Under the pieces are notes generated by a model. It was not told the DNA's origin, ran no database searches, and worked only from the letters and a program-made list of their open reading frames with translations. A program made the position numbers and the translations under genes. 64,000 nt of DNA from contig CAYSXY010000001.1 in the NCBI GenBank assembly GCA_964435165.1, positions 43,847 to 107,846 of the forward strand, in the 5' to 3' direction. Shown here one piece after another: positions 15,255-28,013 of this stretch. Origin of the DNA: an uncultured Rickettsiales bacterium (GTDB lineage Bacteria; Pseudomonadota; Alphaproteobacteria; Rickettsiales; RI-342). The first letter of the stretch is position 1, and every line of letters begins with the position of its first letter.

Positions 15255-17459
15255 TCACGCTGGTTCGCTGGCGGTCTCATAGCGATTATGCGTCTCGCCC
15301 AGCAACTCCCAATCTTCACGACCGCGATGGTTATCAATGTAATTGACCAGCGCGGCGACCGGCGCGCGATTATACATCACGCCGATATCATCCATCATCA
15401 CACGCAGGGCTTCATCAATTGTCGCTCCGGGACGGTAGGCACGCTCGCTGACTAATGCCACGAAACTATTAGCCACAATCACCACTTGCGCTGGCGGCAG
15501 AATATCATCACCTTTGAGTCCAAGCGGTCCATTGCCATCTGCCCTCTCCTGACTTTGACGAAGAGTGTCAATCACAGGCCCATCAAATTCAATCGCTGAG
15601 AGCAAATCCGCCGTTGCCTGAATGGAATTGCGAATACGTGCCCGCCCTTCTTCATCCAGCACTTCTTTTTGCGTCAATAAGGATTCCGGTACCAGAATTT
15701 TTCCCAGATTCATCAAACGGCCTGCCGTTTCTGCCGTTTCAACCATCAGGGATACCAACCCCATTTCACGCGCCACATGGCCGGCAACAGCAGCCACTTT
15801 GCGCGAATGCGAGGCGGCATACGGATCGCGCTTATCAACAAGCGAGACCATACTTTCCACCAAATGGTGCAAAATGCGTTCGCGACGCTCTTTTTCATGC
15901 ACAAACCTGGTCTGGTCTTTTTCAATGATGAGGGTGCCGGGCGTACGCTGATTGGTTTGCGGAAGCGGGATATTCTCCAGTGGAATATGTGTGGATTCAA
16001 AAATATCCTCGCCTTCCCCAGCCCTTTCAGAAGGCACACGATGAGTGACCGTATGGGTGTTATTATCCGCCAATGCCGCCCGGCTGGCCTTCAGATAAGC
16101 GTCTGCCTTGCTGGCCCCCAGCACGGCGGTGATGGTTTTTCCGATCATGCGTCGCGGCTCCATCCGCGCACGCTCCGCTGCCACCCGGTTGGCATAGCGG
16201 TAGTAATGCTCGTTATCGATAATGAAAATAGCATTGGGTGTGGCGGAGGTAATCAATTCAAACAACTCATCCTGCTTTTCGATGCGGTTGGCCAATGCCC
16301 GATAATGGGCCGCGGCGTGTCGGGCTCGCACGGCCGTCGCGTGGCGCCACACGGCCAACATACTGACCGAGACGAGCAGCACAGCTAATAAATAGCTCCC
16401 TACCATCCATTTGCCACGCTGATCACTCTCTGCCAGCACTTCCGCGGCATCAATTTTCAGCATCATTGTCCAATTGCTATAGTTGACAGGACGGCTGGTC
16501 ATCAGCACCAGTTGATTGCGATAATCGGTGCGCAGGGCAAAAGGTGTATCCATCGTCAGCGCGTGACTGGCGGCGAGTTCAGGCGTTGATGCATCCATGC
16601 GTAGTTCAAACGCATTGTAACCACCAAGCAGCACGGGTGACATATATTCAATCTGGCTCTCAGCAACGCGACGTAGCAATAATGTTTCGACCGTCGCAAC
16701 ATCCAGCGGCTGCTCTGTCAGCATATCAAAAAAGGCGGCACTCAATGGCAACACCGCTAAAGCATAGCCTACTGGTTGACTCTCTCCGGCATCCTGCTGC
16801 ACGGCCGTCACCGGCTGCATCAGACCGATCATCCACCCATCCTCTTCATGCTTGAAAGGACCAAAGAGCAGTGACTCCGTCAATTCACGCGATTGCGCAA
16901 AGGTGCGCAGCACGGGCGGGAGTTGAAATCCTCTGGAGCTGGCTAAGATAGTGTGCGAGCGATTGATGAGCGCGATCCCACCTGCCGGTGGTCCCTCCAC
17001 CCCGGCCTTCATGGGCATCGCGGTGTTTGCGGCCGATTGATGCAGCGCTGTCGCTCTGAGCACCGTTGCATTAAGTAAGTTACGCATAAACCCGCTTTGC
17101 GCCATCATTGCCGGTGCTTCTGACGGTGCATTGGCGGTCGCTTGTTCGGTGATGAACAATTGCACGGACGGGTTGGTCGTAATGCCGTCCAGCATATCAA
17201 ACTGTTTATCCAGCCAGCGATTAATCTCTGCCACCTGATGATCCGCCATCAGGCCAAGGCGAATATGCCATTGGCGCATATCGCGCTCTTTTTCTTCATT
17301 AATATAGGAAAGCATCAGAATAAAGCCCAGCAATGCAAGCGCTGTCCAGCCTAGTGCCAGAATCAACCAGCCATAGCGCAGCCAGCGCCGGCGTGCTTGC
17401 TGCGAGGTGCGCGGCTGCATTCTGTTCTGTTCGCTCGAAACGGTGGTTGCGTCTCCCAT
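15255..17459 (-). CDS. Transmembrane sensor: large periplasmic domain, PAS, degenerate (predicted inactive) HD-GYP domain
   Basis: Two TM segments flank a roughly 300-aa periplasmic region. PAS-like IFIIDNEHYYRYAN. HD-GYP scaffold DKRDPYAASHSRKV retained, but HD is MN (15708-15713), HHE is SQE and GYP is GPL (15522-15554), and the D of the final motif is N. Confidence 0.8.
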   Translation of the reverse strand: MGDATTVSSEQNRMQPRTSQQARRRWLRYGWLILALGWTALALLGFILMLSYINEEKERDMRQWHIRLGLMADHQVAEINRWLDKQFDMLDGITTNPSVQLFITEQATANAPSEAPAMMAQSGFMRNLLNATVLRATALHQSAANTAMPMKAGVEGPPAGGIALINRSHTILASSRGFQLPPVLRTFAQSRELTESLLFGPFKHEEDGWMIGLMQPVTAVQQDAGESQPVGYALAVLPLSAAFFDMLTEQPLDVATVETLLLRRVAESQIEYMSPVLLGGYNAFELRMDASTPELAASHALTMDTPFALRTDYRNQLVLMTSRPVNYSNWTMMLKIDAAEVLAESDQRGKWMVGSYLLAVLLVSVSMLAVWRHATAVRARHAAAHYRALANRIEKQDELFELITSATPNAIFIIDNEHYYRYANRVAAERARMEPRRMIGKTITAVLGASKADAYLKASRAALADNNTHTVTHRVPSERAGEGEDIFESTHIPLENIPLPQTNQRTPGTLIIEKDQTRFVHEKERRERILHHLVESMVSLVDKRDPYAASHSRKVAAVAGHVAREMGLVSLMVETAETAGRLMNLGKILVPESLLTQKEVLDEEGRARIRNSIQATADLLSAIEFDGPVIDTLRQSQERADGNGPLGLKGDDILPPAQVVIVANSFVALVSERAYRPGATIDEALRVMMDDIGVMYNRAPVAALVNYIDNHRGREDWELLGETHNRYETASEPA

Positions 17460-17595
17460 AGTGGTGGATTATCGCGCTGTGGCCTGCCTTGTCCAGCGAA
17501 AAGCCGCACATGCTTATCGACGCAGGAAAGATTGTCAGCACTGCGGCGAATATGCTACGCATGAGCGTCTTTCATTCCATAGAGGCCGTGGCCTG

Positions 17596-18222
17596 GTGCG
17601 TACGTTACACTTCATCCTTGTGATCGCCATTCTTATCGTTAGTTCAGCGCCGGCAAGGGCGTTGTTTGATTACACGGAAACGCCATCGCATGACCTCAGT
17701 CTCTTTCCCAAATGGCTCGGCGTGTTGGAGCGCGATTCCAAACATCGTGGCCTGATGCGGCAGGAATGCCAGGAGACATCCCCCTACTGCCTTGACCAGC
17801 GCTGGCAGGATTTTCTGCTTTCATTACAAGGCCAATCGCTGGATGAGCAACTACGGCAGGTGAATCGCTATCACAACCAGGCTGATTATATTCTGGATAT
17901 GGTCAATTGGGGGGTGTTGGATTACTGGGCGACACCCTATGAATTTTTCAACCGTGACGGTGATTGCGAAGATTATGCCATTGCCAAATATATGAGCCTC
18001 AAGCAACTGGGCGTACCGCCTGAGCAGATGCGCGTGGTGGTACTGCAGGACACCAACCTGAACATTATCCATTCGGTTCTGGCTGTCTATGCGGAGGAGA
18101 CGGTGTATATTCTCGATAACCAGATTGAGCAGGTGATCACGGACCGCGACATTCGGCATTACCTGCCGATTTATTCCATCAATGAAGGCGGCTGGTGGCG
18201 GCATTTGCCGCGGAACGGATAG
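17596..18222 (+). CDS. Periplasmic transglutaminase-like cysteine protease (BTLCP, LapG-like)
   Basis: GTG at 17596 gives signal peptide VRTLHFILVIAILIVSSAPARA. Catalytic-triad context GDCEDYAIAKY (Cys codon 17965-17967), IIHSVLAVY, ILDNQ. Confidence 0.8.
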   Translation: MRTLHFILVIAILIVSSAPARALFDYTETPSHDLSLFPKWLGVLERDSKHRGLMRQECQETSPYCLDQRWQDFLLSLQGQSLDEQLRQVNRYHNQADYILDMVNWGVLDYWATPYEFFNRDGDCEDYAIAKYMSLKQLGVPPEQMRVVVLQDTNLNIIHSVLAVYAEETVYILDNQIEQVITDRDIRHYLPIYSINEGGWWRHLPRNG

Positions 18223-18408
18223 ACAGATTTGAACTGAAGGTTTTCTGCGCCCTCTCACCCTGCGGCCTTAGTCGCTGGCGCGAAGCAGCAGTTTTAAGAA
18301 TGAGGTGGCCCCGCGGCTTAGGCGGGGCCATGCTCATGACGACAGAGCATTCAGGTAGCTGCGCTATTCACATTTTCTGTGAATGGCGATGGCGGATCAC
18401 AACAGCAC

Positions 18409-20103
18409 TTACTGCTCGAGATCGCTCTCAGTATTACATTCCAGCCCATCTTCGCTCACCGCGAGTGGGTCCTGCAACACAGCCGTTCCGCAATTGACAT
18501 CGGCGCCTGTACCGGTGTCACCCGCGGCCGGGGCCAATGCACCAAGCTGATCAGCCGGGATATTGCCTAGATCCTGCGTTGCGCTGAGGTCGATATTGAC
18601 GTCAAACACGCCCACTTCATAGCTTTCAAAGCTGGTATCCTGCTCAATCGACTGCTCAGAGAAGGAGATGAGCGGACGGTTGAGATCGTTCGGGCCGAAT
18701 TCTACATCACTGGGGTCTACCGTGCCGGTTGGCGTTGGCGCGGGCGCCGGTGTGGGCGCAGGCGTCGGCTCCGGTGTTGGTTCACCTTCCGGTGGTAGTG
18801 ATACTGGCGGGTTAGGTTCCGGCGTTGGGAACTCAACCGGCGGCTGACTTACCGGCGGATTTGACGGTTCCGGCGTCGGCAATGGCGGCGCTGTCGAAAC
18901 CGGTGGGTTTGTCGGCTCCGGCGTGGTTGGTTCCGGTGTCGTTGGTTCCGGTGTGGTTGGCTCCAGCGTGGTCGGTTCCGGTGTGGTTGGCTCCGGTGTG
19001 GTTGGCTCCGGTGTGGTCGGCTCAATCACAATCTCACCACTTGGATCTTCCACCAAATATAATGCATTGATTTCACTTGTGATATTCGCCGGACGGCTAA
19101 TAGGTATATCGAAGGTGTTATCGACAGCATTAACGGCTAAGATAACTGTACCACCAGTTTTATGGTGTGTATTGGCATTAATCCGTCCATTAACCGTCAC
19201 ACCATGATCTGCAGAGGTGTGTGCATCCGATACTTTGTTGCCATCATTCAGGAATGCAAACGGCACACCATGTCCGGGTGCCGGATCATCATACGCACCT
19301 TGAAATGAGCGGGGTCTTTTACCAGCATCAACCGCGATTATGTTATCACCATCCAGGCCAATAGCAAAGGTACGCCCAGACGCCAAAATGACATTACCGA
19401 AATCTTTCTGGTTTGCGTTTAATTGACCGCCTGATTGCAACTCCACCTCTGGAGCTACAAGGGCAATCACTGCATTATCCACAATATTGGTATTAACTTG
19501 ACCGGAAACGCTGATTTTTCCGCCGGAAGCGGGAATATCAAAGTAAAAGAGGTTGTCTGTAGCCGCTACAAACTCGTCAACATCAATATCAGCAGCTGTA
19601 GCCAAAAATCCTGCACTGTAAATGGAGCCGCCAACATGCAAGCCTTTGGGACTAACAATAATAACACGCCCGTCAGCCCGTAGCGTACCATTAATTTGCG
19701 GTACTGTAGCGCTGTTAATTACACGATTCAAAACGATTGATGACGGTGCAGGTTGATTAAATTCCACTTCTCTGCCTGCATTAATATCAAAGCTGTCCCA
19801 ATCTATCGCAGCACGATCTGATAAGTCATAAACATGCTTGGTGGATGAACTCTGACCAGGAGCTGTATTTAGCACTGCAGAGCCTGCTCGCACCGCATTC
19901 ATAACTGGTAAATCCGCTGCACTGGCAAAGCGGGCGGCTTCAAATGTCACCATACCGGCAATCGCCACAGCGGAGAGGCAGCGCTGCACCGGGCTGTGAC
20001 GGCGGCTGAGCGCAGTGGAGCTGGCATAGCCATGCATGATGGCGTTGTTATGGTTGTTTTTTGCTGTGGTGCGCATGGTTATACTCCTCTGACGATCACC
20101 CAA
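18409..20103 (-). CDS. Short two-partner-secretion exoprotein (TpsA) with a Pro/Thr linker and an acidic C-terminus carrying PAAG plus two Cys
   Basis: TPS domain IDWDSFDINAGREVEFNQPAPSSIVLNRV...INGTLRADGRVIIVSPKGLHVG, then a beta-helix-like region, (PEPTT)n, and PAAG at 18520-18531. Cys codons at 18490-18492 and 18436-18438. Confidence 0.85.
   Translation of the reverse strand: MGDRQRSITMRTTAKNNHNNAIMHGYASSTALSRRHSPVQRCLSAVAIAGMVTFEAARFASAADLPVMNAVRAGSAVLNTAPGQSSSTKHVYDLSDRAAIDWDSFDINAGREVEFNQPAPSSIVLNRVINSATVPQINGTLRADGRVIIVSPKGLHVGGSIYSAGFLATAADIDVDEFVAATDNLFYFDIPASGGKISVSGQVNTNIVDNAVIALVAPEVELQSGGQLNANQKDFGNVILASGRTFAIGLDGDNIIAVDAGKRPRSFQGAYDDPAPGHGVPFAFLNDGNKVSDAHTSADHGVTVNGRINANTHHKTGGTVILAVNAVDNTFDIPISRPANITSEINALYLVEDPSGEIVIEPTTPEPTTPEPTTPEPTTLEPTTPEPTTPEPTTPEPTNPPVSTAPPLPTPEPSNPPVSQPPVEFPTPEPNPPVSLPPEGEPTPEPTPAPTPAPAPTPTGTVDPSDVEFGPNDLNRPLISFSEQSIEQDTSFESYEVGVFDVNIDLSATQDLGNIPADQLGALAPAAGDTGTGADVNCGTAVLQDPLAVSEDGLECNTESDLEQ
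18905..19025 (-). repeat. In-frame 15-bp tandem repeat encoding (T)PEPT units, about 8 copies
   Basis: ggttggctccggtgt-type units repeated head to tail. Protein reads EPTTPEPTTPEPTTPEPTTLEPTTPEPTTPEPTTPEPT. Confidence 0.9.
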
Positions 20104-20250
20104 ATAGTAGTCACACGATCTGTTGTTATTCTGGTTGAATACGGGATACCGCTGCCACCCAAAATATTTAACAAATTGTTAAAATCAAGCGCTAATTCAC
20201 CCTACTGTTTAAATTAATGCCCCCAAGCCATTGCTGTTTAACAATTATAT

Positions 20251-21933
20251 CTAGAAGCGACGGACCAGGCCAACAAACAGCCGTGGCTGATCGCCGTCAT
20301 TGCGTTCGGCGCTGACATTACGCGTCAGTGGCACGGCCAGTTCAACAAAGCCGGTGGTTTGGCTGTTGACATTGAAGCGCACGCCCGGACCGAACGAGGC
20401 AAGCGTATCGCGCCCACTCACACCTGGCAGGCCGTCTTCTTCCCATACCGCTCCAAAATCATAATAGAGATAAGCCTGGTAAGAACTGAGATATTCATAA
20501 TCGGTTGCACGACCATAGCGTAGCTCACCGCGGAAGGCGACACCATGATCGCCGGTGATTTCCGAAGGATCATAAGCCGAGCCGAACAGCGAGCCCCCTA
20601 CCCCGAACTCCTCTGACGAGAGTAACGGATCGAACGCATACTGCCCGGTGACACTCGTGAAGAGTGAGAAGTCACGCGGCAGATCCTGCAGGCGGGTGAT
20701 GGTCGCGTTAATGCTGGTAAAGTCGGCTTCGCCATCAGGCCGCGAGCGGTTGAGGCCGTCATCGCTGGCGCCAAACGCATCAATCCCCTGGCGTAACTGC
20801 ATATCCAGCAGGTTGATGCCGCGCCAATCATCGGCAACATCGAGATTGAAGCCGGCAAAGAGCGTACGCACACTGTCATCATAGAGTTCGATGCCGGAGA
20901 TATCGGTTTCCGTATCGACCATCTCAAACCCGACACGGGCAAACACATTATACGTACGAGAGCGCACAAACGGATGCTCGACAGCCACTTCAAAACGGGT
21001 GCTTTCCCCTTCGATATTCAATGGCTCAAGGAACGAGCCTGGCTCGGTCATGCTGTAGGCGCCACGCAGTTCTATCCGCGTGCCTTCATTGCCAATCTGC
21101 TGCTCATGTGCCACATCAATAAAGCGCAGTTCATCCACTTCTGAGGTGAGGATGCCACGCACTGTTGTGCGCTCATACATGCCGAGAATCGAGTTGGCAG
21201 CGGCGATGCCCGTCAACTGGTAAGGCCCAAGCAGACGGCTGCCGCGATTATCGGCCTGAATCGCCCCTTCATAAGTATCATGCCCGACGAGCAACACGAG
21301 GCTGGATGCACCAGCTTCAATCTGCGAGGGCTGGAGAATGCCGCGTGCGGTCACGCCCGGCAGATCATCGGCCAACAGCAAGTAACGCTCCAGTGTTTTG
21401 ACATTGAGCGGCTTGCTTTCCTGAATTTTCGCGGCATAGGCGCGCAGTAATTCTTCACTGCCCTTGATCTCGCCCTGAATATTCACATCGCTGATGTGAC
21501 CTTCGGCAATTTGCAATGTAACGACACCATCTTTAATGCGCTGCGGGCCGATAAAGGCACGCGAGAGGATATATCCATCACGGCGATATTTTGCCGTAAT
21601 GTTGCGTGCCAACTGATTAATCTCACGCATGGTCACACGCTTGCCGAGATAATCACTCACTTCCATTTTCAATATGTCATCGTCATAGACACTGTTGCCC
21701 TCAAACATCATATCATTGAGGACAAAGCTGACTTCCTGAATGGCGGCGTCACCAGCAGTGGTTGCGCCTTCCTGTTCAATCACTGCATCCTGCCTCGGCG
21801 TTGGAAGACTGCGCGGCAAGATGTCGCGTTGCACCCGTTCCGGCGCGGCGGTGGGGGGCACGATTTGCGCCCAGCTGGCAGAAGAAGTAGTGATGAGTAA
21901 AGCGGAAGCAAGGGCAAAAGAAAGCGAGCGCAT
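20251..21933 (-). CDS. TpsB outer-membrane transporter (ShlB/FhaC/HecB family)
   Basis: Signal peptide, POTRA-like N-terminal region (FEGNSVYDDD...LARNITAKYRRDGYILSRAFI), C-terminal beta-barrel ending in an aromatic residue (LVRRF). Immediately upstream of the TpsA gene. Confidence 0.9.
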   Translation of the reverse strand: MRSLSFALASALLITTSSASWAQIVPPTAAPERVQRDILPRSLPTPRQDAVIEQEGATTAGDAAIQEVSFVLNDMMFEGNSVYDDDILKMEVSDYLGKRVTMREINQLARNITAKYRRDGYILSRAFIGPQRIKDGVVTLQIAEGHISDVNIQGEIKGSEELLRAYAAKIQESKPLNVKTLERYLLLADDLPGVTARGILQPSQIEAGASSLVLLVGHDTYEGAIQADNRGSRLLGPYQLTGIAAANSILGMYERTTVRGILTSEVDELRFIDVAHEQQIGNEGTRIELRGAYSMTEPGSFLEPLNIEGESTRFEVAVEHPFVRSRTYNVFARVGFEMVDTETDISGIELYDDSVRTLFAGFNLDVADDWRGINLLDMQLRQGIDAFGASDDGLNRSRPDGEADFTSINATITRLQDLPRDFSLFTSVTGQYAFDPLLSSEEFGVGGSLFGSAYDPSEITGDHGVAFRGELRYGRATDYEYLSSYQAYLYYDFGAVWEEDGLPGVSGRDTLASFGPGVRFNVNSQTTGFVELAVPLTRNVSAERNDGDQPRLFVGLVRRF

Positions 21934-22288: not shown

Positions 22289-23572
22289 ATGCGCTTTGCC
22301 CACTCTCTCACCTTTGCCTGCCTCGCCAGCACCGCTTTTGTAGCTGTGGCCATAATGCCCACTCATTCGCTGGCAGCCGATAATAAGGAATCGATTGCCG
22401 ATTTGCGCAAAGAGTTGCAGGTGCAACGTGGTCGGATTGAAGTGCAGCAGCGCGCCCTGGAGACACAACTTCGGGCACTGGAGAAAAGCCAGCAACGCCT
22501 TAATAAGCAGATTAGGGATATTGATAAGTTAGAGAAACGTCTCAGCAAAGCGCTTGAAACCGCTCTGCCGGAAGAGATGGAAGCCATTGAACAAGCGGAT
22601 AGCGCTGTACCTGATCAAGTGGGAACGGAGCGTCGCACAGAAGAGATGGAAAAACCACAGGCGGTAGAGGTTGCGACTCTGGCAGATGAAGGGGGCGTCT
22701 TGCTCTCTAAAGGACAGCTTATTATTGACCCGTCGCTCGAATATTCCCGCGCTTCCACCTTGCGAGTCGCGGTGGAGGGCTTCACCATTGTACCGGCATT
22801 GAATATTGGCTCGTTTGATATTTCGCAGATCGACCGTGACACGTACAGCGCATCGCTTGGCTTGCGCTATGGCCTGACCAACCGCCTGGAGATCAGCACC
22901 CGAGTGCCGTATGTGTATCGTAATGACAGCACGCTCAGTCGGCCAATTGGCGAAGGCGTTGGCGTTGAGCGCCTGACAGATGTAAGTGGTGATGGTATTG
23001 GCGATTTGGAGTTCGGCGCTAACTATCAGTTAACCAATGGCGAAGGCGGCTGGCCCTTCCTGGTCGCAAATTTCCGCGTGAAATCGAACACGGGCACCAA
23101 TCCGTTTGAAGTGAATATTGACCCCGATACCGGGCTGCAGACAGAATTGCCGACCGGTTCCGGCTTCTGGGCTCTCTCGCCAAGCATCACCGCCATCTTC
23201 CCCTCCGACCCAGTCGTGTTTTTCGGTAATCTTGGGTACTTATATAATATGCCCAATGACTTTGGTGGCAATACGGGTGAGATTGATCCGGGCGACAGTA
23301 TCAGCTTCAGCTTTGGTATGGGCCTGGGTATTAATGATCGCACGTCATTCAATGTGGGCTATGGTCACAGCGTGGTGTTTGAAACCACACAGAATGGTAA
23401 TACATTACCCACCTCCGATGTGCTGCAGGTTGGTTCTCTCGACCTTGGTTTTTCTTATCAGGTCAATGACTCGCAGAATCTCAACTTTACCGTCAGCGCT
23501 GGCCTGACGGATGATGCACCTGATGTGCGCCTGGTGTTCCGCGCACCTTTCAGCCTCAACCTGCATGAATAG
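22289..23572 (+). CDS. Outer-membrane beta-barrel protein with N-terminal coiled coil (FapF-like architecture)
   Basis: Signal peptide ending in SLA, about 55 aa of heptad-like sequence (IADLRKELQVQRGRIEVQQRALETQLRALEKSQQRLNKQIRDIDKLEKRL), an acidic linker, then alternating-hydrophobic beta-strand region with GIGDLEFGANYQL. The CDS is secure; the functional call is architectural only. Confidence 0.55.
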   Translation: MRFAHSLTFACLASTAFVAVAIMPTHSLAADNKESIADLRKELQVQRGRIEVQQRALETQLRALEKSQQRLNKQIRDIDKLEKRLSKALETALPEEMEAIEQADSAVPDQVGTERRTEEMEKPQAVEVATLADEGGVLLSKGQLIIDPSLEYSRASTLRVAVEGFTIVPALNIGSFDISQIDRDTYSASLGLRYGLTNRLEISTRVPYVYRNDSTLSRPIGEGVGVERLTDVSGDGIGDLEFGANYQLTNGEGGWPFLVANFRVKSNTGTNPFEVNIDPDTGLQTELPTGSGFWALSPSITAIFPSDPVVFFGNLGYLYNMPNDFGGNTGEIDPGDSISFSFGMGLGINDRTSFNVGYGHSVVFETTQNGNTLPTSDVLQVGSLDLGFSYQVNDSQNLNFTVSAGLTDDAPDVRLVFRAPFSLNLHE

Positions 23573-23745
23573 CTGCCATTCTTAAACTGCATAGCTGTTA
23601 TTTTTACTTCTCGTTCATGATTATTGATTCGCAATATCTTTCATAAGTCGCTCTTATGCTTGGATTGATGCGCTTTTGAATACAGACTGTTCACCAAATT
23701 TACTTATTAACAACAAACATTAACGGGCGTTTATTTTTACTTGCA

Positions 23746-23774
23746 TGTTTGAAAAAGGCTATTATGCATAGTGC
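23746..23774 (+). promoter_or_regulatory. Candidate sigma-70-type promoter for the repeat-protein gene
   Basis: TTACTT-17 nt-TATTAT about 90 nt upstream of the ATG at 23866, in an AT-rich 290-bp spacer. Sequence pattern only. Confidence 0.25.
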
Positions 23775-23865
23775 GCAGGTAAAGGCGTTTTTGAATATTG
23801 ACTATTCGTTCATTTTTAAATTCGTCGCAAATAAATCTCATAAATATCCGTTCTGGAGGATTACA

Positions 23866-25986
23866 ATGAATTTTAAAACTCTTCTTGGCACAACGTCTGC
23901 CGTTGCTCTGTTGGCTTCCGTAGCCAGCACCCCGGCTTACGCTGTGGACGATGCCATTGATGGCAACAAGAACGACAACAACACCGTTGACCAGTCGCAA
24001 GACACCAACGATGCGTCGTTTAATGATAACAGCGAACTGACCGATAACTCGGACAACTCGATTGATACCGATAATTCAATCGATACCGATAACTCGGACA
24101 ATTCGGATAACTCGATCGATACCGCTGATTCGTACAATGCTGACAACACGAACAATTCGGACAACTCCGTAGACACCGATGTTGACAACAGCAACAACGC
24201 TGATAACTCGGATAATTCGGATAATTCGATCGACACCGCTGATTCGTACAACGATCAGTCCGATAACTCGGTTGATAATGACTACGATTTCGACAATGAT
24301 GTTGATACTGATGTTGACAACAGCAACAACTCCGACAACTCGGACAACAGCTCTGTTGACACCGACAATTCCGACAATTCGGATAACTCGATCGATACCG
24401 CTGATTCGTACAACACGGATAACACGAACAATGCCGATAACTCGGACAATTCGGACAATTCCGTAGATACCGATACCGACAATTCCGACAACTCGGACAA
24501 CTCGGACAATTCGGATAACTCGATCGATACCGCTGATTCGTACAACGATCAGTCCGATAACACCGATAACTCGGATAACTCGATCGATACCGATACCGAC
24601 AATTCGAACAACTCCGATAACTCGGACAATTCGGATAACTCGATCGATACCGCTGATTCGTACAACGATCAGTCCGACAATTCGAACAACTCGGACAATT
24701 CGGACAACAGCTCCATTGATACCGACAATTCGAACAACTCCGATAATTCGGACAATTCGGACAACTCCATCGATACCGCTGATTCGTACAACGACAGCTC
24801 CGATAACTCGATTGATACCGATACGGACAACTCGATCGACAACGACTATTCGTATGACAATGATACGGATACCGATGTGGATAACTCCGACAATTCGGAC
24901 AATTCGGTTTACACCGAAACCAACACGGACAACTCGGACAACAGCCTGGTGACCACAACCACCACGCAAACCGATTCGTTCAACACCGATACGGATACCG
25001 ATGTTGATAATTCCGATAACTCGGATAACTCGATCGATACCGCTGATTCCTACAACACGGATAACAGCAATAACTCGGACAATTCGAACAATTCCGACAA
25101 CTCCAACAACTCGGATAACTCGAACAACTCCGACAACTCGATCGATACCGATACGGACAATTCGGACAATTCGACCACGGATATCGCTGATTCCTACAAT
25201 ACGGATAACAGCGACAACTCCGATAACTCGGTGAATGATTCGTACAATACCGACAACACGAACAACTCGGATAACTCCGACAATTCGGACAACTCGGTAT
25301 ACACCGAAACCAACACCGACAATTCCGATAACTCGGACAACTCGGACAACTCGACCACCGATATTGCTGATTCCTACAACACGGACAACAGCAACAACTC
25401 GGACAACTCGAACAACTCCGATAACTCCGATAATTCCGACAACTCGGTGAACGATTCCTACAACACCGCTGATTCGAACAACACTGACAACTCCGATAAC
25501 TCGGACAACTCAGTGAATGATTCGAACAATACTGAAGGTTCGTACAACACCACTGATAACTCCGATAACTCGGACAACAGTGACAGCTCGGTGAATGATT
25601 CCAATAACACCGACGATTCGTACAACGTTTCGGATTCGGATAACGACAACAACTCGTACAACACGACTGATTCGAACAACGATAACAGCGATAACAGCAT
25701 GAATGATAATCGCACCATCGTTGACAACAGCGTGAACGTGACGAGCGGTGATGTTCTGTTCCAGGGTAACAGCCAAGTTACCGCTTCGGTTCTGAACTCG
25801 ACCGTTGCTAACTCGACCGTGAACTGGGATCTGCAAGATGTGACCATTCAAGGTAACCGTCTGCAAGGTGAAGCCTTCAAAGGTTCCAGCGGTATCAACG
25901 CAGCGAACATGAACACCGGCGTGAACTCCAATGTTCAACAGTCGATTTCGGTTCGTGCGACCATCAACAATGGCGTAACCCCGTAA
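23866..25986 (+). CDS. Secreted 706-aa D/N/S/T-rich repeat protein with a C-terminal Q/N/G-rich module (candidate major fibre subunit, FapC-like)
   Basis: GGAGGA RBS 6 nt upstream of the ATG at 23866. Signal peptide MNFKTLLGTTSAVALLASVASTPAYA. About 563 aa of DNS-type repeats. C-terminus GNRLQGEAFKGSSGINAANMNTGVNSNVQQSISV is shared with the two downstream small proteins. Confidence 0.85.
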   Translation: MNFKTLLGTTSAVALLASVASTPAYAVDDAIDGNKNDNNTVDQSQDTNDASFNDNSELTDNSDNSIDTDNSIDTDNSDNSDNSIDTADSYNADNTNNSDNSVDTDVDNSNNADNSDNSDNSIDTADSYNDQSDNSVDNDYDFDNDVDTDVDNSNNSDNSDNSSVDTDNSDNSDNSIDTADSYNTDNTNNADNSDNSDNSVDTDTDNSDNSDNSDNSDNSIDTADSYNDQSDNTDNSDNSIDTDTDNSNNSDNSDNSDNSIDTADSYNDQSDNSNNSDNSDNSSIDTDNSNNSDNSDNSDNSIDTADSYNDSSDNSIDTDTDNSIDNDYSYDNDTDTDVDNSDNSDNSVYTETNTDNSDNSLVTTTTTQTDSFNTDTDTDVDNSDNSDNSIDTADSYNTDNSNNSDNSNNSDNSNNSDNSNNSDNSIDTDTDNSDNSTTDIADSYNTDNSDNSDNSVNDSYNTDNTNNSDNSDNSDNSVYTETNTDNSDNSDNSDNSTTDIADSYNTDNSNNSDNSNNSDNSDNSDNSVNDSYNTADSNNTDNSDNSDNSVNDSNNTEGSYNTTDNSDNSDNSDSSVNDSNNTDDSYNVSDSDNDNNSYNTTDSNNDNSDNSMNDNRTIVDNSVNVTSGDVLFQGNSQVTASVLNSTVANSTVNWDLQDVTIQGNRLQGEAFKGSSGINAANMNTGVNSNVQQSISVRATINNGVTP
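24022..25710 (+). repeat. Coding low-complexity array with 9-nt (Asp/Asn-Asn-Ser) periodicity and higher-order ADSYN punctuation
   Basis: gataactcg, gacaattcg and gacaactcc units repeated. Nine ADSYN-containing motifs by my count (IDTADSYN x7, TDIADSYN x2). Synonymous codon alternation breaks up perfect DNA identity. Confidence 0.92.
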
Positions 25987-26029
25987 TATACGGAGTGTAA
26001 CCAACGTTGTTACGATTTGCGGGAAGTGC

Positions 26030-26055
26030 CGAATTCGGCACTTCCCCTTCGTAAC
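26030..26055 (+). terminator. Strong stem-loop after the repeat-protein gene (possible attenuating terminator)
   Basis: gggaagtgccg aatt cggcacttccc, an 11-bp perfect stem 44 nt after the stop. No strong U-tract. Confidence 0.4.
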
Positions 26056-26136
26056 ATCAACCACAATATGTTATATCAAACCAGCAGGATCCTTCCTTTT
26101 GCTTTGATGTAACAACCTAATATCAGGATAACGATA

Positions 26137-26700
26137 ATGCGCTTACGCAAGTCGACCATTGCTATGACCTTTGTCGCGGTTGCCGCACTTGTAGGCTTCC
26201 GCCCAGCGGTTGCCGACCAGCCTGTGTTCAATTACAGCCCAATGTATGGTCCGGCTCATCAGGTATCCAACCTGTTTTTCCCTGGAGAACTTAGCCCGTG
26301 GCGTGACCTTTCTCTTCCGTGGAACGCCAGCACTGATGCAACCTGGCTGCGTTATGCCGAGAATTATGGCCCGGCACTGCCTCTGCCATCAATTCTGGAA
26401 GGCTCACCTTCTTCTGTGAGTATGACATTGGCTACCAATATGGAATTCTTCAATGCTCAAACGCTGCAGGATGACAATCTGAATGAGATGCGGGGTGCAT
26501 TCGCCGCTGAAACGTTGGGTGTGTCGATTCTGGAAGCGGCGGCTGTGCAAAACACCATCAATGGTGATTCCATTACCGGCTATAACCGCCTGCAGAATGA
26601 AGCCTTTCAAAATTCAAGCGGTGTGATCAGCGTGATTCAGAATACCGGTAATAATGTCATTATTCAGAACTCGACCATCGTCAACCTGCATATGGAATAA
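26137..26700 (+). CDS. Small secreted protein carrying the shared C-terminal Q/N/G module (FapB-like candidate)
   Basis: Signal peptide ...FRPAVA. LNEMRGAF motif. C-terminal YNRLQNEAFQNSSGVISVIQNTGNNVIIQNSTIVNL is about half identical to the C-terminus of the repeat protein. Confidence 0.7.
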   Translation: MRLRKSTIAMTFVAVAALVGFRPAVADQPVFNYSPMYGPAHQVSNLFFPGELSPWRDLSLPWNASTDATWLRYAENYGPALPLPSILEGSPSSVSMTLATNMEFFNAQTLQDDNLNEMRGAFAAETLGVSILEAAAVQNTINGDSITGYNRLQNEAFQNSSGVISVIQNTGNNVIIQNSTIVNLHME

Positions 26701-26772
26701 TTTACGCTGCATCCGGTCGCCAGGCGTGATAAGGACGGTGCTCGTACACGAAACAAAGACGAAAACAGGGAT

Positions 26773-27465
26773 ATGCGGCACATACTGACATTACTTGTAA
26801 CGATGATGGCCCTACAAGGGGCGCCCGCCCATGCGCAATTGGCATTATGGGATACGGTCGGCGGCAATTTTTCAGTTCCGGTGCAAACCATCTCCGAAAG
26901 GCGCTTTAGTGGTGTCATCCCTCAACAAAAAGATTTCAGCTGCGGTTCGGCTGCACTTGCGACACTCCTGACCTATCACTATGAGCGACCTATTACGGAG
27001 GAAGAAGCGCTGGAAGCCATGTATGCAGTCGGCGAACAGGAAAAAATCGAGCGTGAAGGCTTCTCCCTTCTGGATATGAAAAATTATCTGGCCACTCTGG
27101 GGCTGCGCGCCGATGGCTATCGTCAATCGCTTGATCAACTGAGTTCAGTAGGCATCCCAGCTATCGTCCTCATTAACTATAATGGCTATTTGCACTTTGT
27201 TGTTATCAAAGGCGTTACCGACGATGATGTATTGGTGGGCGACCCAGCGCTAGGCCTGCGCAGCATGGGGCGTGAGAAGTTTGAATCGATGTGGAACGGT
27301 ATTCTCTTTGTCATTCGTGACGATATTGATATCGCCAAAAGCAATTTCAACCAAATAACGGAATGGGCCATGATTGGTCAGGCTCCGATTACTGCACAGG
27401 CAACCTCTTTGCAGGATTTATCGAGCTTCTATCTCAATCTGCGCACCGCACCGAACTATTATTAA
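26773..27465 (+). CDS. Periplasmic C39-family cysteine peptidase (FapD-like, stand-alone, no ABC transporter)
   Basis: Signal peptide ...LQGAPAHA. QQKDFSCGSAALATLL (Cys codon 26941-26943), YLHFVVIKG (His), VLVGDPALG (Asp). Confidence 0.85.
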   Translation: MRHILTLLVTMMALQGAPAHAQLALWDTVGGNFSVPVQTISERRFSGVIPQQKDFSCGSAALATLLTYHYERPITEEEALEAMYAVGEQEKIEREGFSLLDMKNYLATLGLRADGYRQSLDQLSSVGIPAIVLINYNGYLHFVVIKGVTDDDVLVGDPALGLRSMGREKFESMWNGILFVIRDDIDIAKSNFNQITEWAMIGQAPITAQATSLQDLSSFYLNLRTAPNYY

Positions 27466-27467
27466 GG

Positions 27468-28013
27468 ATGATGACGTTCATGACCGTTGGATTTAGTGCA
27501 TCTCTTTCTCGCCTGACACAGAGTGCTGCCACTGTGGCATTGCTGCTCTCACTGGCGATGCCGGCCCACGCTTTTATTGATGATGTGCCCGATAGTGGCG
27601 CCGACGCAGAGGCATTTTTTGGGGCTGAAAACAAGGTAAGTGACGAGGAACTTTCCGGGATGCGTGGAGCGTATATCGACGCAAATGGCTTGGAAGTGAA
27701 TTTCACCCTGACGACACAAACTATTATCGATGGCCGTGTGGTCCATGAAGTGCGACTGACACCTCAAGTGACACCGACTTTCAACGTCAATGACCTATCC
27801 AAGCTGGTTCGTGTTGGTGAAGGCAATATTGCCTACCCGCAAGAGCTGCTGAATGACGCGAACCGTATCATGACTGTGATTCAGAACACAAATGATAACA
27901 CGGTGATTCAAAATCTGAACCTGCTCGATCTTGAAGTTGATAATGTGCAGGATTTCTACAATCAGCAAATGACTGGCATGGTCAATTTCTCTGCCGTTCG
28001 CGCTTTACGATAA
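27468..28013 (+). CDS. Small secreted paralogue of the 26137..26700 product
   Basis: Met cluster at 27468, 27471 and 27480 just after the C39 stop. Signal peptide ...LSLAMPAHA. LSGMRGAY motif and RIMTVIQNTNDNTVIQNLNLL module. Confidence 0.65.
   Translation: MMTFMTVGFSASLSRLTQSAATVALLLSLAMPAHAFIDDVPDSGADAEAFFGAENKVSDEELSGMRGAYIDANGLEVNFTLTTQTIIDGRVVHEVRLTPQVTPTFNVNDLSKLVRVGEGNIAYPQELLNDANRIMTVIQNTNDNTVIQNLNLLDLEVDNVQDFYNQQMTGMVNFSAVRALR

What the first reader, a model, noticed from the sequence alone, without database searches (positions are those of the whole stretch)
18409..21933. Miniature CdrA-like TPS adhesin with a C-terminal PAAG protease site followed by a Cys-Cys hook
TpsB (20251-21933) is followed by a 564-aa TpsA. 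The TpsA has a clear TPS domain, a short beta-helix-like region and a Pro/Thr linker. Its acidic C-terminus reads ...LGALAPAAGDTGTGADVNCGTAVLQDPLAVSEDGLECNTESDLEQ. PAAG (18520-18531) fits the (T/A/P)AAG di-alanine motif cleaved by LapG-type proteases. The only two Cys of the C-terminal region lie just downstream of it. As I recall the published model for P. aeruginosa CdrA, a TpsA is retained in its TpsB pore by a C-terminal cysteine hook and released when LapG cuts at TAAG. The candidate protease gene is immediately adjacent (17596-18222). The adhesin is about a quarter the size of CdrA.
Basis: partly seen in the sequence, partly recalled or inferred. Interest (0 to 1): 0.8.

Follow-up and report, generated by a model that had tools for sequence, protein, structure and literature searches.

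The report
Protease-releasable cysteine hook on mini-adhesin
A small secreted surface protein ends in a conserved tail, a PAAG cut site followed by two cysteines, that probably holds it in its outer-membrane pore until a neighbouring, c-di-GMP-controlled protease cuts it loose; the same tail defines a previously undescribed family of such proteins.

Summary
TpsB (20251-21933, -) and a 555/564-aa TpsA (18409-20103, -) are present. PAAG lies at 18520-18531. The only two cysteines of the mature protein lie 9 and 27 residues after it. A signal-peptide BTLCP with an intact Cys-His-Asp triad lies 186 bp away.

New evidence supports the interpretation. The last ~110 residues form a module absent from Pfam. 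It recurs in 46 proteins, where full-length mostly TpsAs of 385 to more than 3400 aa. PAAG is present in 45 of 46, and two cysteines follow the last motif in 46 of 46. In four deeply diverged loci a module-bearing TpsA lies next to the same protease. Two of these are co-linear tpsA-tpsB-BTLCP-receptor clusters.

The receptor is not LapD. It is a DvhD-like protein (15255-17459) with a TM-periplasmic-TM-PAS-degenerate HD-GYP architecture, as in Desulfovibrio.

The best reading is a CdrA-style retain-and-release adhesin driven by a DvhD/DvhG-type c-di-GMP switch, probably in an alphaproteobacterium.

The main caveat is a Fap-like amyloid cluster with a periplasmic C39 peptidase. It also flanks these TPS genes, here and in four other loci, and that peptidase is a rival protease. 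No cleavage, disulfide bond or c-di-GMP binding has been shown.

The parts
15255..17459 (-). DvhD-like inner-membrane receptor, 734 aa. Architecture: TM (~29-54), periplasmic domain of ~300 aa, TM (~350-377), PAS_4, then a degenerate HD-GYP. It is the presumed c-di-GMP sensor that controls the BTLCP.
   Evidence: Pfam gives PAS_4 and HD_5. The best PDB match is the DvhD PAS/HD-GYP fragment 9rc0/9rbz, E 7e-35. HD is replaced by MN, HHE by SQE, and GYP by G-PL. MN is invariant in 6 of 6 orthologues. The periplasmic domain gives only a weak dCache_1 hint, E 0.0026.
17596..18222 (+). Periplasmic BTLCP (LapG/DvhG-family, Peptidase_C93) cysteine protease, 208 aa with a signal peptide. It is divergent from the receptor gene across a 136-bp spacer.
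   Evidence: PF06035 E 8e-19. NCBIfam LapG E 5e-30, below the equivalog cut-off. PDB LapG entries 4u65 and 4fgo match at E 1e-21. GDCEDYAIAK, His159 and Asp174 are invariant in 6 orthologues.
18306..18330 (-). GC-rich hairpin followed by a T-rich tail, lying between the convergent tpsA and BTLCP genes. It is a possible terminator.
   Evidence: Consensus scan only. The number of sites in the region is not above the shuffled expectation.
18409..20076 (-). TpsA, 555 aa from the ATG (564 aa from the TTG at 20103). It consists of a signal peptide, a TPS domain, a poorly predicted ~100-aa region, a Pro/Thr linker and the C-terminal module.
19348..19815 (-). TPS secretion domain (residues 97-252 in 564-aa numbering).
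   Evidence: PF05860 E 3.6e-15. TIGR01901 E 8.5e-13. AF2 pLDDT is 84-95. Foldseek matches EtpA, HMW1 and HxuA with probability 1.0.
18739..19050 (-). Pro/Thr/Glu-rich extended linker of ~104 aa. It is presumed to thread through the TpsB barrel and the periplasm.
   Evidence: Composition is. AF2 predicts the region as disordered. Pro-rich linkers precede the module in relatives.
18412..18738 (-). Conserved C-terminal module of 109 aa: DLNRPLIS ... VNIDLS ... QLGALAPAAG ... C-x17-C ... tail. It is not in Pfam.
   Evidence: A profile search found 29 relatives, and a further search brought the total to 46. Pfam gives no hit even at E 10.
18520..18531 (-). PAAG, the candidate BTLCP site. The predicted cut is between Ala526 and Ala527 (564-aa numbering) and would release a 38-aa hook peptide.
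   Evidence: It fits [T/A/P]AA[G/V]. It is conserved in 45 of 46 relatives.
18436..18492 (-). Cys538 ... Cys556 pair, 17 residues apart. It is the presumed disulfide hook.
   Evidence: Two Cys after the last motif occur in 46 of 46 relatives, spaced mostly 17 or 9 residues.
20251..21933 (-). TpsB outer-membrane transporter, 560 aa.
   Evidence: POTRA_2 and ShlB. Orthologues at 38-44% identity lie next to module-bearing proteins in 10 loci (L001, L008, L010, L011, L012, L014, L015, L016, L017, L019; also L026).
22289..28013 (+). Neighbouring Fap-like cluster, divergent from tpsB. It holds a FapF homologue (22289-23572), a D/N/S-repeat protein (23866-25986), a 187-aa secreted protein (26137-26700), a FapD-like periplasmic C39 peptidase (26773-27465) and a ~181-aa secreted protein (27468-28013). 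It is possibly functionally linked.
   Evidence: FapF matches PDB 5O65 at E 7e-30 and NCBIfam FapF at 3e-51. FapD matches NCBIfam at 1e-48. The same cluster lies directly upstream of tpsB-tpsA in L001 and L010-L012.

Best explanation
This is a two-partner-secretion surface protein with a C-terminal retain-and-release module.

1. After Sec export, the TPS domain engages TpsB and the protein threads N-terminus first through the TpsB barrel.
2. The ~100-residue Pro/Thr linker stays in the pore and periplasm.
3. The acidic C-terminal module stays in the periplasm. There Cys538-Cys556 form a disulfide loop too bulky to pass, so the protein is held on the cell.
4. The adjacent periplasmic BTLCP (LapG/DvhG family) cuts between the two alanines of PAAG, 10 residues before the first Cys. 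This removes a 38-residue hook and releases the protein.
5. Protease access is gated by the divergently encoded DvhD-like receptor. Its catalytically dead HD-GYP domain binds c-di-GMP in the cytoplasm and signals inside-out to its periplasmic domain. High c-di-GMP would keep the protein attached and low c-di-GMP would release it.

Shown here: gene content, motifs, conservation, homology and gene linkage. Inferred: topology, disulfide formation, the cut site, c-di-GMP binding and the direction of regulation.
For: 1. TPS pair: the TPS domain and TpsB are confirmed.

2. Module conservation: the C-terminal module recurs in 46 proteins. PAAG is present in 45 and two Cys follow the last motif in all 46. 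Cys spacing is fixed at about 17 or 9 residues, and a Pro-rich linker usually precedes the module.

3. Gene linkage: the BTLCP/DvhD-like pair lies 186 bp from tpsA here and 5.3 kb away in L008. In L015 and L017 it forms co-linear tpsA-tpsB-BTLCP-dvhD-like clusters. These loci share only 43-61% BTLCP identity and 28-41% TpsA identity, and the linkage occurs in three different arrangements. The chance of finding a single-copy gene within 10 kb is below 1% per locus.

4. No competing T1SS partner: no T1SS or RTX adhesin lies beside any BTLCP locus of this subfamily.

5. Active protease: the BTLCP triad and the D-C-E calcium site are invariant.

6. Receptor: it matches the DvhD PAS/HD-GYP fragment at E 7e-35 and shows the same kind of metal-ligand loss. 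DvhD is a published c-di-GMP receptor that controls a BTLCP.

7. Site validity: PAAG is a validated LapG site. The CdrA precedent is TAAG followed by a disulfide hook at the C-terminus of a TpsA.

8. Upstream helix: AF2 places a short helix (QLGA) directly before PAAG, as in LapG substrates, but at low confidence.
Against: - There is no experimental evidence of any kind.
- In about 10 of 14 informative loci the module-bearing gene has no BTLCP within the flank available.
- The closest BTLCP/DvhD-like pairs (L003-L007) have no TPS genes within 10 kb.
- One family member has only PSAGG and no Ala-Ala.
- The second Gly (P[AS]AGG, 43 of 46) is nearly as conserved as Ala-Ala. This would also suit a Gly-Gly-specific C39 peptidase, and one is encoded next door.
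- The spacing of upstream Leu and Pro relative to the site differs by one residue from the LapA 'DPxxxLxxTAAG' pattern.
- The module is predicted with low confidence.
- Homology of this tail to the CdrA tail could not be tested.
Confidence: 0.55

Rival explanations
1. The tail is processed by the FapD-like periplasmic C39 peptidase (26773-27465), not by the BTLCP. It would cut after the Gly-Gly of P[AS]AGG. The TPS protein would then be an accessory of the Fap-like amyloid system, for example a fibre anchor or nucleator, and the BTLCP adjacency would be incidental or serve another substrate.
For: The Fap-like cluster (FapF, repeat protein, small proteins, C39) lies directly upstream of tpsB-tpsA on the same strand in L001, L010, L011 and L012. 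It flanks tpsB here too.

GG follows the motif in 43 of 46 members, and PSAGG copies lack Ala-Ala. PSAGG copies occur in 3 of the 4 other Fap-linked loci and in none of the 4 BTLCP-linked loci.

C39 peptidases cut after GG or GA, and the FapD substrate is unknown. The motif shows Leu at -7 and often Asp/Glu at -8, as in double-glycine leaders.
Against: The window protein has PAAGD with no GG, and P0157 has PAAGP twice.

Position -4 is Ala or Ser rather than the large hydrophobic residue of double-glycine sites.

The C39 already has better candidate substrates. The two small secreted proteins beside it in every cluster carry a canonical (D/E)-E-L-x-x-(M/Y/F)-R-G-(G/A/S/T) site.

Eight or more module loci have no C39 nearby, including the two operonic BTLCP loci.
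Confidence: 0.15
2. The module is a periplasmic anchor or TpsB-docking element that is not subject to regulated proteolysis. P[AS]AGG repeats would be structural, for example flexible turns. The Cys loop would tether the protein permanently, as in HMW1, or release would rely on general periplasmic proteases. The BTLCP/DvhD-like pair would act on an unlinked substrate.
For: Most module loci lack an adjacent BTLCP, and the closest BTLCP pairs lack adjacent TPS genes.

The motif is often repeated two to five times, which is unusual for a single cleavage site.

Small signal-peptide proteins that carry only the module exist in L014.

From my own knowledge, not checked here: HMW1 is held by a C-terminal disulfide loop without a dedicated release protease.
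Against: A near-invariant four-residue motif that matches a known protease specificity sits just before the Cys loop. On top of that, the same protease family is repeatedly and tightly linked to these genes in three gene arrangements. A structural motif does not easily explain this combination.
Confidence: 0.2
3. Coincidence: PAAG and the two cysteines are chance features of a low-complexity acidic tail.
For: [TAP]AAG is a short motif. It is expected in about 1% of such tails by composition alone.
Against: Both features are conserved across 46 relatives at 25-60% identity, with fixed spacing. None of 20000 shuffles gave both features.
Confidence: 0.02

Closest known systems
CdrA/CdrB with LapG/LapD of Pseudomonas aeruginosa (a type Vb substrate of LapG)
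   Same: Both have a TpsA with a C-terminal [T/A/P]AAG site followed by a two-cysteine hook that is retained in the cognate TpsB. Both have a periplasmic BTLCP as the releasing protease and c-di-GMP as the presumed input. Some relatives of the window protein also carry MBG_2 stalk repeats, as CdrA does.
   Different: The window protein is 555 aa against 2154 aa for CdrA. It has no MBG_2 repeats and has a Pro/Thr linker instead of a stalk. Its receptor is PAS plus degenerate HD-GYP, not LapD with HAMP-GGDEF-EAL. The protease and receptor are encoded next to the TPS genes. The lineage is probably alphaproteobacterial. Sequence homology of the two tails was not tested.
DvhA/DvhG/DvhD of Desulfovibrio (Nitratidesulfovibrio) vulgaris Hildenborough
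   Same: Both have a receptor with the architecture TM-periplasmic domain-TM-PAS-catalytically dead HD-GYP, encoded beside a BTLCP. The cytoplasmic module is homologous (E 7e-35), and the HD and HHE metal ligands are lost in both.
   Different: The Desulfovibrio substrates are giant T1SS RTX adhesins cut near the N-terminus. Here there is no T1SS, and the candidate substrate is a small T5b protein cut near the C-terminus. The BTLCP here matches LapG structures (E 1e-21), and no other BTLCP chain in the PDB reached E 0.001. It has a signal peptide rather than a TM anchor. A dCache fold for the periplasmic domain is unconfirmed.
LapA/LapG/LapD of Pseudomonas fluorescens and relatives (FrhA/CraA, BrtA, RtxA)
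   Same: Both share the protease family, the di-alanine specificity (PAAG in FrhA), a helix and turn preceding the site, and the logic of a periplasmic retention element removed at low c-di-GMP.
   Different: The Lap system uses T1SS rather than T5bSS. Its retention module is N-terminal and folded, not a C-terminal Cys loop. It uses a LapD receptor.
HMW1/HMW1B of Haemophilus influenzae (from my own knowledge; the paper was not read here)
   Same: Both are TpsA adhesins tethered to the cell because a short C-terminal disulfide-bonded loop stays on the periplasmic side of the TpsB pore. The TPS domain folds are similar. HMW1 is mentioned as an entrapped TPS substrate.
   Different: HMW1 has no BTLCP site, no dedicated release protease and no c-di-GMP control.
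Fap functional amyloid system (fapABCDEF) of Pseudomonas
   Same: The neighbouring cluster encodes FapF and FapD homologues together with Asn/Gln/Ser-rich secreted proteins.
   Different: Canonical fap operons contain no TPS pair. The scores fall below the NCBIfam equivalog cut-offs, and the FilB/FilC models also match. The subunit proteins match no library family.

Membership tests
CdrAB-type LapG-regulated TPS adhesin | TpsA with an N-terminal TPS domain and an adjacent cognate TpsB | tested here: met
   PF05860 E 3.6e-15 for TpsA, and POTRA_2 plus ShlB for TpsB. The fold matches the EtpA, HMW1 and HxuA TPS domains.
CdrAB-type LapG-regulated TPS adhesin | [T/A/P]AAG di-alanine site close to the C-terminus | tested here: met
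   PAAG lies at residues 525-528 of 564. It is conserved in 45 of 46 relatives.
CdrAB-type LapG-regulated TPS adhesin | Two cysteines downstream of the site that form a disulfide hook | tested here: inconclusive
   Cys538 and Cys556 are the only Cys of the mature protein, and a pair is present in 46 of 46 relatives. Disulfide formation and pore blocking cannot be tested computationally here.
CdrAB-type LapG-regulated TPS adhesin | A LapG-family BTLCP with an intact triad and calcium site, exported to the periplasm | tested here: met
   The signal peptide is visible.
CdrAB-type LapG-regulated TPS adhesin | Cleavage of the tail by the BTLCP and release from the cell | not testable with these tools
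   This needs biochemistry. Complex modelling was not available.
CdrAB-type LapG-regulated TPS adhesin | A LapD receptor (LapD_MoxY_N, HAMP, degenerate GGDEF-EAL) | tested here: not met
   The adjacent receptor has PAS_4 plus HD_5 only and matches DvhD, not LapD.
CdrAB-type LapG-regulated TPS adhesin | A long MBG_2-repeat stalk and a large (~220 kDa) fibrillar adhesin | tested here: not met
   The window protein has no MBG_2 hit and is 555 aa. MBG_2 is present in relative P0152.
CdrAB-type LapG-regulated TPS adhesin | Sequence homology of the C-terminal tail to the CdrA tail | not tested
   The CdrA sequence could not be obtained: Cooley 2016 is not held and no Pseudomonas collection is available. 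No protein of CdrA's length (2154 aa) appeared among the 30 profile hits.
DvhD/DvhG-type c-di-GMP switch | Architecture TM-periplasmic domain-TM-PAS-HD-GYP, encoded beside a BTLCP | tested here: met
   The pairing is conserved in L003-L008, L015 and L017.
DvhD/DvhG-type c-di-GMP switch | Homology to the DvhD cytoplasmic module, with loss of the HD and HHE metal ligands | tested here: met
   9rc0 matches at E 6.8e-35 over PAS plus HD-GYP. HD is replaced by MN (SQ in DvhD) and HHE by SQE (MNE in DvhD). MN is invariant in 6 of 6 orthologues.
DvhD/DvhG-type c-di-GMP switch | Periplasmic dCache fold | tested here: inconclusive
   dCache_1 scores E 0.0026, below the cut-off. The single-sequence AF2 model is unusable at pLDDT 36.7.
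DvhD/DvhG-type c-di-GMP switch | High-affinity c-di-GMP binding and control of the protease | not testable with these tools
   This needs ITC or DSF and genetics.
DvhD/DvhG-type c-di-GMP switch | A T1SS RTX adhesin substrate and T1SS genes in the locus | tested here: not met
   No T1SS or RTX protein is present in the 64-kb window or beside any related BTLCP locus.
Fap functional amyloid system (neighbouring cluster) | FapF trimeric barrel with an N-terminal coiled coil, plus a periplasmic FapD C39 peptidase | tested here: met
   PDB FapF 5O65 matches at E 7e-30. NCBIfam FapF scores 3.4e-51 and FapD 1e-48, both below the equivalog cut-offs.
Fap functional amyloid system (neighbouring cluster) | FapB/FapC/FapE amyloid subunits | tested here: inconclusive
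   The three secreted proteins match no Pfam or NCBIfam family. They do share an N/Q/S-rich C-terminal motif with proteins of L001 and L010-L012.

The most novel reading that the evidence does not exclude
The PAAG(G)-Cys-loop module would mark a previously undescribed, widespread family of TPS exoproteins in Alphaproteobacteria. These proteins would act as releasable cell-surface anchors. In genomes like this one the TPS protein would tether Fap-like amyloid fibres to the cell. The DvhD-type c-di-GMP switch, acting through the BTLCP, would then decide whether the fibre-bearing anchor stays on or is shed. Two periplasmic cysteine proteases (BTLCP and FapD-like C39) would act on one envelope machine, linking second-messenger signalling directly to amyloid attachment.
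Probability: 0.15. Interest if true: 0.8.

Novelty: new variant of a known kind. Interest (0 to 1): 0.62.

Why it matters
CdrA is so far the only type Vb substrate of a LapG-type protease. The DvhD-type (HD-GYP) receptor has been described only in a sulfate reducer, where it controls T1SS adhesins.

This locus and its relatives combine the two. They suggest that 'hook plus di-alanine site' is a general, portable C-terminal module for regulated release of TPS proteins, from ~400 aa to more than 3400 aa, in a different bacterial class.

The window protein is small: one TPS domain, a linker and a 109-aa tail. That makes it a tractable minimal model for studying how a TpsA is held in, and released from, its TpsB pore.

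The recurrent link to a Fap-like cluster also gives a concrete lead on the unresolved question of what FapD-type peptidases cut.

Tried and rejected
- The full-length TpsA word-index search gave only 4 relatives, and only P0005 shared the tail. The family emerged only from the exhaustive profile search.
- The first metagenome scan, with pattern G[SAE]LAPAAGG, returned 600 chance matches and no relative. The second gave 7 loci, none with a BTLCP in its flanks.
Without an alignment it failed, at pLDDT 36.7. The dCache question therefore stays open.
- The AF2 model of TpsA is confident only for the TPS domain. The tail has pLDDT 36-50, so no structural claim is made about the hook.
- Cooley 2016 and Boyd 2014, the primary papers on CdrA and LapA cleavage, are not held. 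No CdrA tail sequence could be found in the papers that are held.
- Rfam gave no hit in the window, so there is no c-di-GMP riboswitch.
- Promoter and terminator scans were not above shuffled expectation.
- Sortase-like or CTERM sorting signals were considered and rejected. The tail is acidic, has no hydrophobic segment and matches no Pfam or NCBIfam model.
- Short 'module-only' database proteins were considered as possible standalone genes. Most start at contig ends or after unresolved repeats, as in L012 and L020-L023, so they are treated as fragments. L014 is a possible exception.

Full report
**1. Observation**

- TpsB is 20251-21933 (-), 560 aa, with POTRA_2 and ShlB domains.
- It is followed, after 174 bp, by a TpsA ORF at 18409-20103 (-).
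- The TTG ORF is 564 aa. The ATG at 20076 follows GAGGAG and gives the 555-aa product that public gene calls use.
- The TPS domain is significant (PF05860 E 3.6e-15; TIGR01901).
- An AF2 model is confident only for residues ~62-245, with pLDDT 84-95. That part matches the secretion domains of the adhesin-type TpsAs EtpA, HMW1 and HxuA.
- A poorly predicted ~100-residue stretch follows.
- Next comes a 104-residue linker with 40 Pro, 21 Thr and 16 Glu. It includes 7.3 copies of a 15-bp repeat at 18914-19023.
- The last part is a 109-residue acidic tail with 22 Asp/Glu, 1 Arg and 0 Lys.
- PAAG is residues 525-528 (18520-18531). Cys538 and Cys556 are the only cysteines of the mature protein.
- In 20000 shuffles of the mature sequence, [TAP]AAG fell in the last 60 residues 1.3% of the time, and never with both Cys downstream.

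**2. The protease and its partner**

The gene at 17596-18222 (+) encodes a 208-aa BTLCP with a signal peptide.
- It matches PF06035 at E 8e-19.
- It matches NCBIfam LapG at E 5e-30, below the equivalog cut-off.
- It matches the LapG structures 4u65 and 4fgo at E 1e-21.
- Across six orthologues the GDCEDYAIAK block, His159 and Asp174 are invariant. This block holds the catalytic Cys flanked by the Asp/Glu calcium ligands, so the enzyme should be active.

- It encodes a 734-aa protein with two TM helices around a ~300-residue periplasmic domain, then PAS_4 and an HD-GYP-type domain.
- Its best match among solved structures is the PAS/HD-GYP fragment of Desulfovibrio DvhD (9rc0/9rbz, E 7e-35).
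- DvhD is a published c-di-GMP receptor. Its HD-GYP domain has lost the metal ligands (HD to SQ, HH to MN). It binds c-di-GMP without hydrolysing it and controls the BTLCP DvhG.
- The window protein has MN in place of HD, SQE in place of HHE, and G-PL in place of GYP. MN is invariant in all six orthologues aligned.
- The regulatory pair is therefore of the DvhD/DvhG type, not LapD/LapG.
- The periplasmic domain gives only a weak dCache_1 hint (E 0.0026). I could not obtain a usable model.

**3. The tail is a conserved module**

A word-index search with the whole TpsA found four relatives. Only one of them, P0005 (25% identical overall), shared the tail. It has PAAGG twice, the same 17-residue Cys-Cys spacing and a similar short acidic end.

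A profile of the two tails was searched exhaustively against 1.84 billion representatives. It found 30 proteins at E <= 1e-3, of which 29 are real. A second search with a 24-sequence profile added more.

In the 46 members:
- PAAG is present in 45.
- P[AS]AGG is present in 43.
- Two Cys follow the last motif in all 46.
- The Cys spacing clusters at 17 or at 9 residues.
- A tail of only 1-12 residues follows in all but two members.

Upstream there are further conserved blocks: DPL(D/G)RP(L/I)(L/I)S, NLSLLG and (S/T)PxQLGxL.

Most full-length members are TpsAs with a TPS domain, from about 550 aa to more than 3400 aa; the shortest (385-469 aa) show no clear TPS domain. Most have a Pro-rich linker just before the module.

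The module matches nothing in Pfam. The window protein is one of the smallest and most divergent members, with a single motif copy that reads PAAGD rather than PAAGG.

**4. Genomic linkage**

I collected the surroundings of module-bearing genes. The BTLCP/DvhD-like pair is linked to them in four loci:
- In the window it lies 186 bp away, convergent with tpsA.
- In L008 it lies 5.3 kb away, in the same relative order and orientation as in the window, with sapC-mrdAB-mreCD inserted between.
- In L015 and L017 the four genes are co-linear as tpsA-tpsB-BTLCP-dvhD-like, with 31-37 bp between tpsB and the BTLCP.

These four loci are deeply diverged: BTLCP identity is 43-61%, receptor identity 33-48% and TpsA identity 28-41%. 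The linkage appears in three arrangements, which argues for selection rather than inherited synteny. For a single-copy gene, the chance of lying within 10 kb is below 1% per locus.

None of the BTLCP loci of this subfamily has T1SS or RTX genes nearby. The 64-kb window also holds none, and no other exported protein in it has a hydrophobic-x-[TAP]AAG site.

Against the link:
- The closest BTLCP pairs (L003-L007) have no TPS genes within 10 kb.
- About ten module loci show no BTLCP in the flanks available.

**5. The second neighbour: a Fap-like cluster**

A Fap-like cluster lies divergent from tpsB.
- 22289-23572 is a FapF homologue (PDB 5O65 E 7e-30; NCBIfam FapF 3e-51).
- 23866-25986 is a 706-aa D/N/S-repeat protein.
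- 26137-26700 is a 187-aa secreted protein.
- 26773-27465 is a periplasmic FapD-like C39 peptidase (NCBIfam 1e-48).
- 27468-28013 is a ~181-aa secreted protein.

In L001, L010, L011 and L012 the same set lies directly upstream of tpsB-tpsA on one strand. L010-L012 are alphaproteobacterial or 'Rickettsiales' MAGs; L001 is an unclassified metagenome contig.

C39 peptidases cut after Gly-Gly, and the substrate of FapD is unknown. The C39 is therefore a genuine rival for the P[AS]AGG motif. Three points count against it:
- The window protein has no GG, and P0157 also lacks it.
- Position -4 is Ala or Ser rather than a large hydrophobic residue.
- In every cluster, the two small secreted proteins beside the C39 carry a canonical double-glycine-type site, (D/E)-E-L-x-x-(M/Y/F)-R-G-(G/A/S/T). 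Examples are AELAEMRGG in L010 and EELSGMRGA and DNLNEMRGA in the window. The C39 thus already has better candidate substrates.

One small-number observation: PSAGG copies occur only in Fap-linked loci, and the BTLCP-linked proteins carry only PAAG.

**6. Mechanism proposed**

Confidence is 0.55 for the whole chain.
1. Sec export, then TPS-domain recognition by the TpsB POTRA domains, then N-to-C threading through TpsB.
2. The Pro/Thr linker occupies the pore and periplasm, and the acidic module remains periplasmic.
3. Cys538-Cys556 are oxidised to a 19-residue loop that cannot pass the pore, so the protein is held on the surface.
4. The BTLCP cuts Ala526/Ala527 and removes a 38-residue hook (AGDTG...DLEQ).
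5. The DvhD-like receptor, when loaded with c-di-GMP, keeps the BTLCP away from the tail.

This is the published CdrA logic combined with the published DvhD logic. PAAG is a validated LapG site in FrhA. LapG substrates have a helix and a turn before the site. AF2 puts a short helix on QLGA just before PAAG, at low confidence. Everything beyond sequence, conservation, homology and linkage is inferred.

**7. Comparison and novelty**

It works like CdrAB/LapDG, but it fails two membership features of that system. It has no LapD and no MBG_2 stalk, although some relatives such as P0152 do have MBG_2 repeats and a short Cys loop.

It is a member of the DvhD/DvhG kind for its regulatory pair, but it lacks that system's T1SS substrate. 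I found no paper describing BTLCP- or DvhD-linked TPS systems outside P. aeruginosa, nor this C-terminal module.

I rate it a new variant of a known kind. I could not test whether the module is homologous to the CdrA tail.

**8. Verdict**

It needs two corrections: the receptor is DvhD-like, and there is an unexcluded rival protease, the FapD-like C39. Interest is 0.62.

Noticed in passing
window 22289-28013 (+); also L001 1-2344, L010 1630-6156, L011 1264-6010, L012 1128-5820: A Fap-like (functional amyloid) cluster lies next to tpsB here. It holds a FapF homologue, a long D/N/S-repeat protein, two small secreted proteins and a periplasmic FapD-like C39 peptidase. The same cluster lies directly upstream of tpsB-tpsA in four other loci. 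Canonical fap operons have no TPS pair.
   Followed up: partly
window 26137-26700 and 27468-28013; L001 487-1092 and 1829-2344; L010 4509-4949 and 5704-6156; L011 4373-4804 and 5561-6010; L012 4165-4617 and ~5400-5820: The small secreted proteins flanking the FapD-like C39 all carry an internal (D/E)-E-L-x-x-(M/Y/F)-R-G-(G/A/S/T) motif. Examples are AELAEMRGG, EELSGMRGA and AELDTYRGT. It matches the double-glycine leader consensus cut by C39 peptidases. The substrate of FapD is an open question in the literature, so these are concrete candidates.
   Followed up: partly
window 23866-25986 (+): This is a 706-aa secreted protein made almost entirely of Asp/Asn/Ser/Thr repeats, with nested tandem repeats of 9 to 120 bp across 24049-25578. 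Its C-terminal motif (...NMNTGVNSNVQQSISVRATIN) is shared with the small Fap-like proteins. It matches no Pfam or NCBIfam family. The local GC skew and AT skew are extreme.
   Followed up: partly
L014 6654-10192: A TpsB gene is followed by three small genes of 129, 145 and 188 aa. Each product has a signal peptide and a P[AS]AG-Cys-loop tail but no TPS domain. These are module-only proteins of unclear secretion route and role.
   Followed up: no
L008 13987-14763; L028 7387-8178; L030 10296-11072: A SapC-family gene (PF07277 in L008, with similar sequences in L028 and L030) sits immediately downstream of the module-bearing TpsA in three loci.
   Followed up: no
proteins P0144, P0146, P0149, P0152, P0153, P0159-P0161, P0169, P0170; L019 6207-9299: A sub-family of the module has a short C-x9-C loop (CAN.FLDN.PC). 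P0152 carries MBG_2 repeats, the stalk repeats of CdrA, and several others show similar repeat sequence by eye. This sub-family may be the closest to the CdrA tail.
   Followed up: no
L003-L008, L015, L017 and window 15255-18222: The BTLCP plus DvhD-like (PAS, degenerate HD-GYP) gene pair is conserved across alphaproteobacterial metagenome contigs. It is usually divergent and often lies near mreCD-mrdAB or yebC-ruvCAB. The published DvhD system is from Desulfovibrio, so this receptor type is much more widespread.
   Followed up: partly
window 20244-20273 (-): A near-consensus sigma-70-like site (TTGGCC, 18-nt spacer, TATAAT) lies at the 3' end of tpsB, upstream of tpsA. It may be an internal promoter for tpsA. 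It rests on a consensus match only.
   Followed up: no
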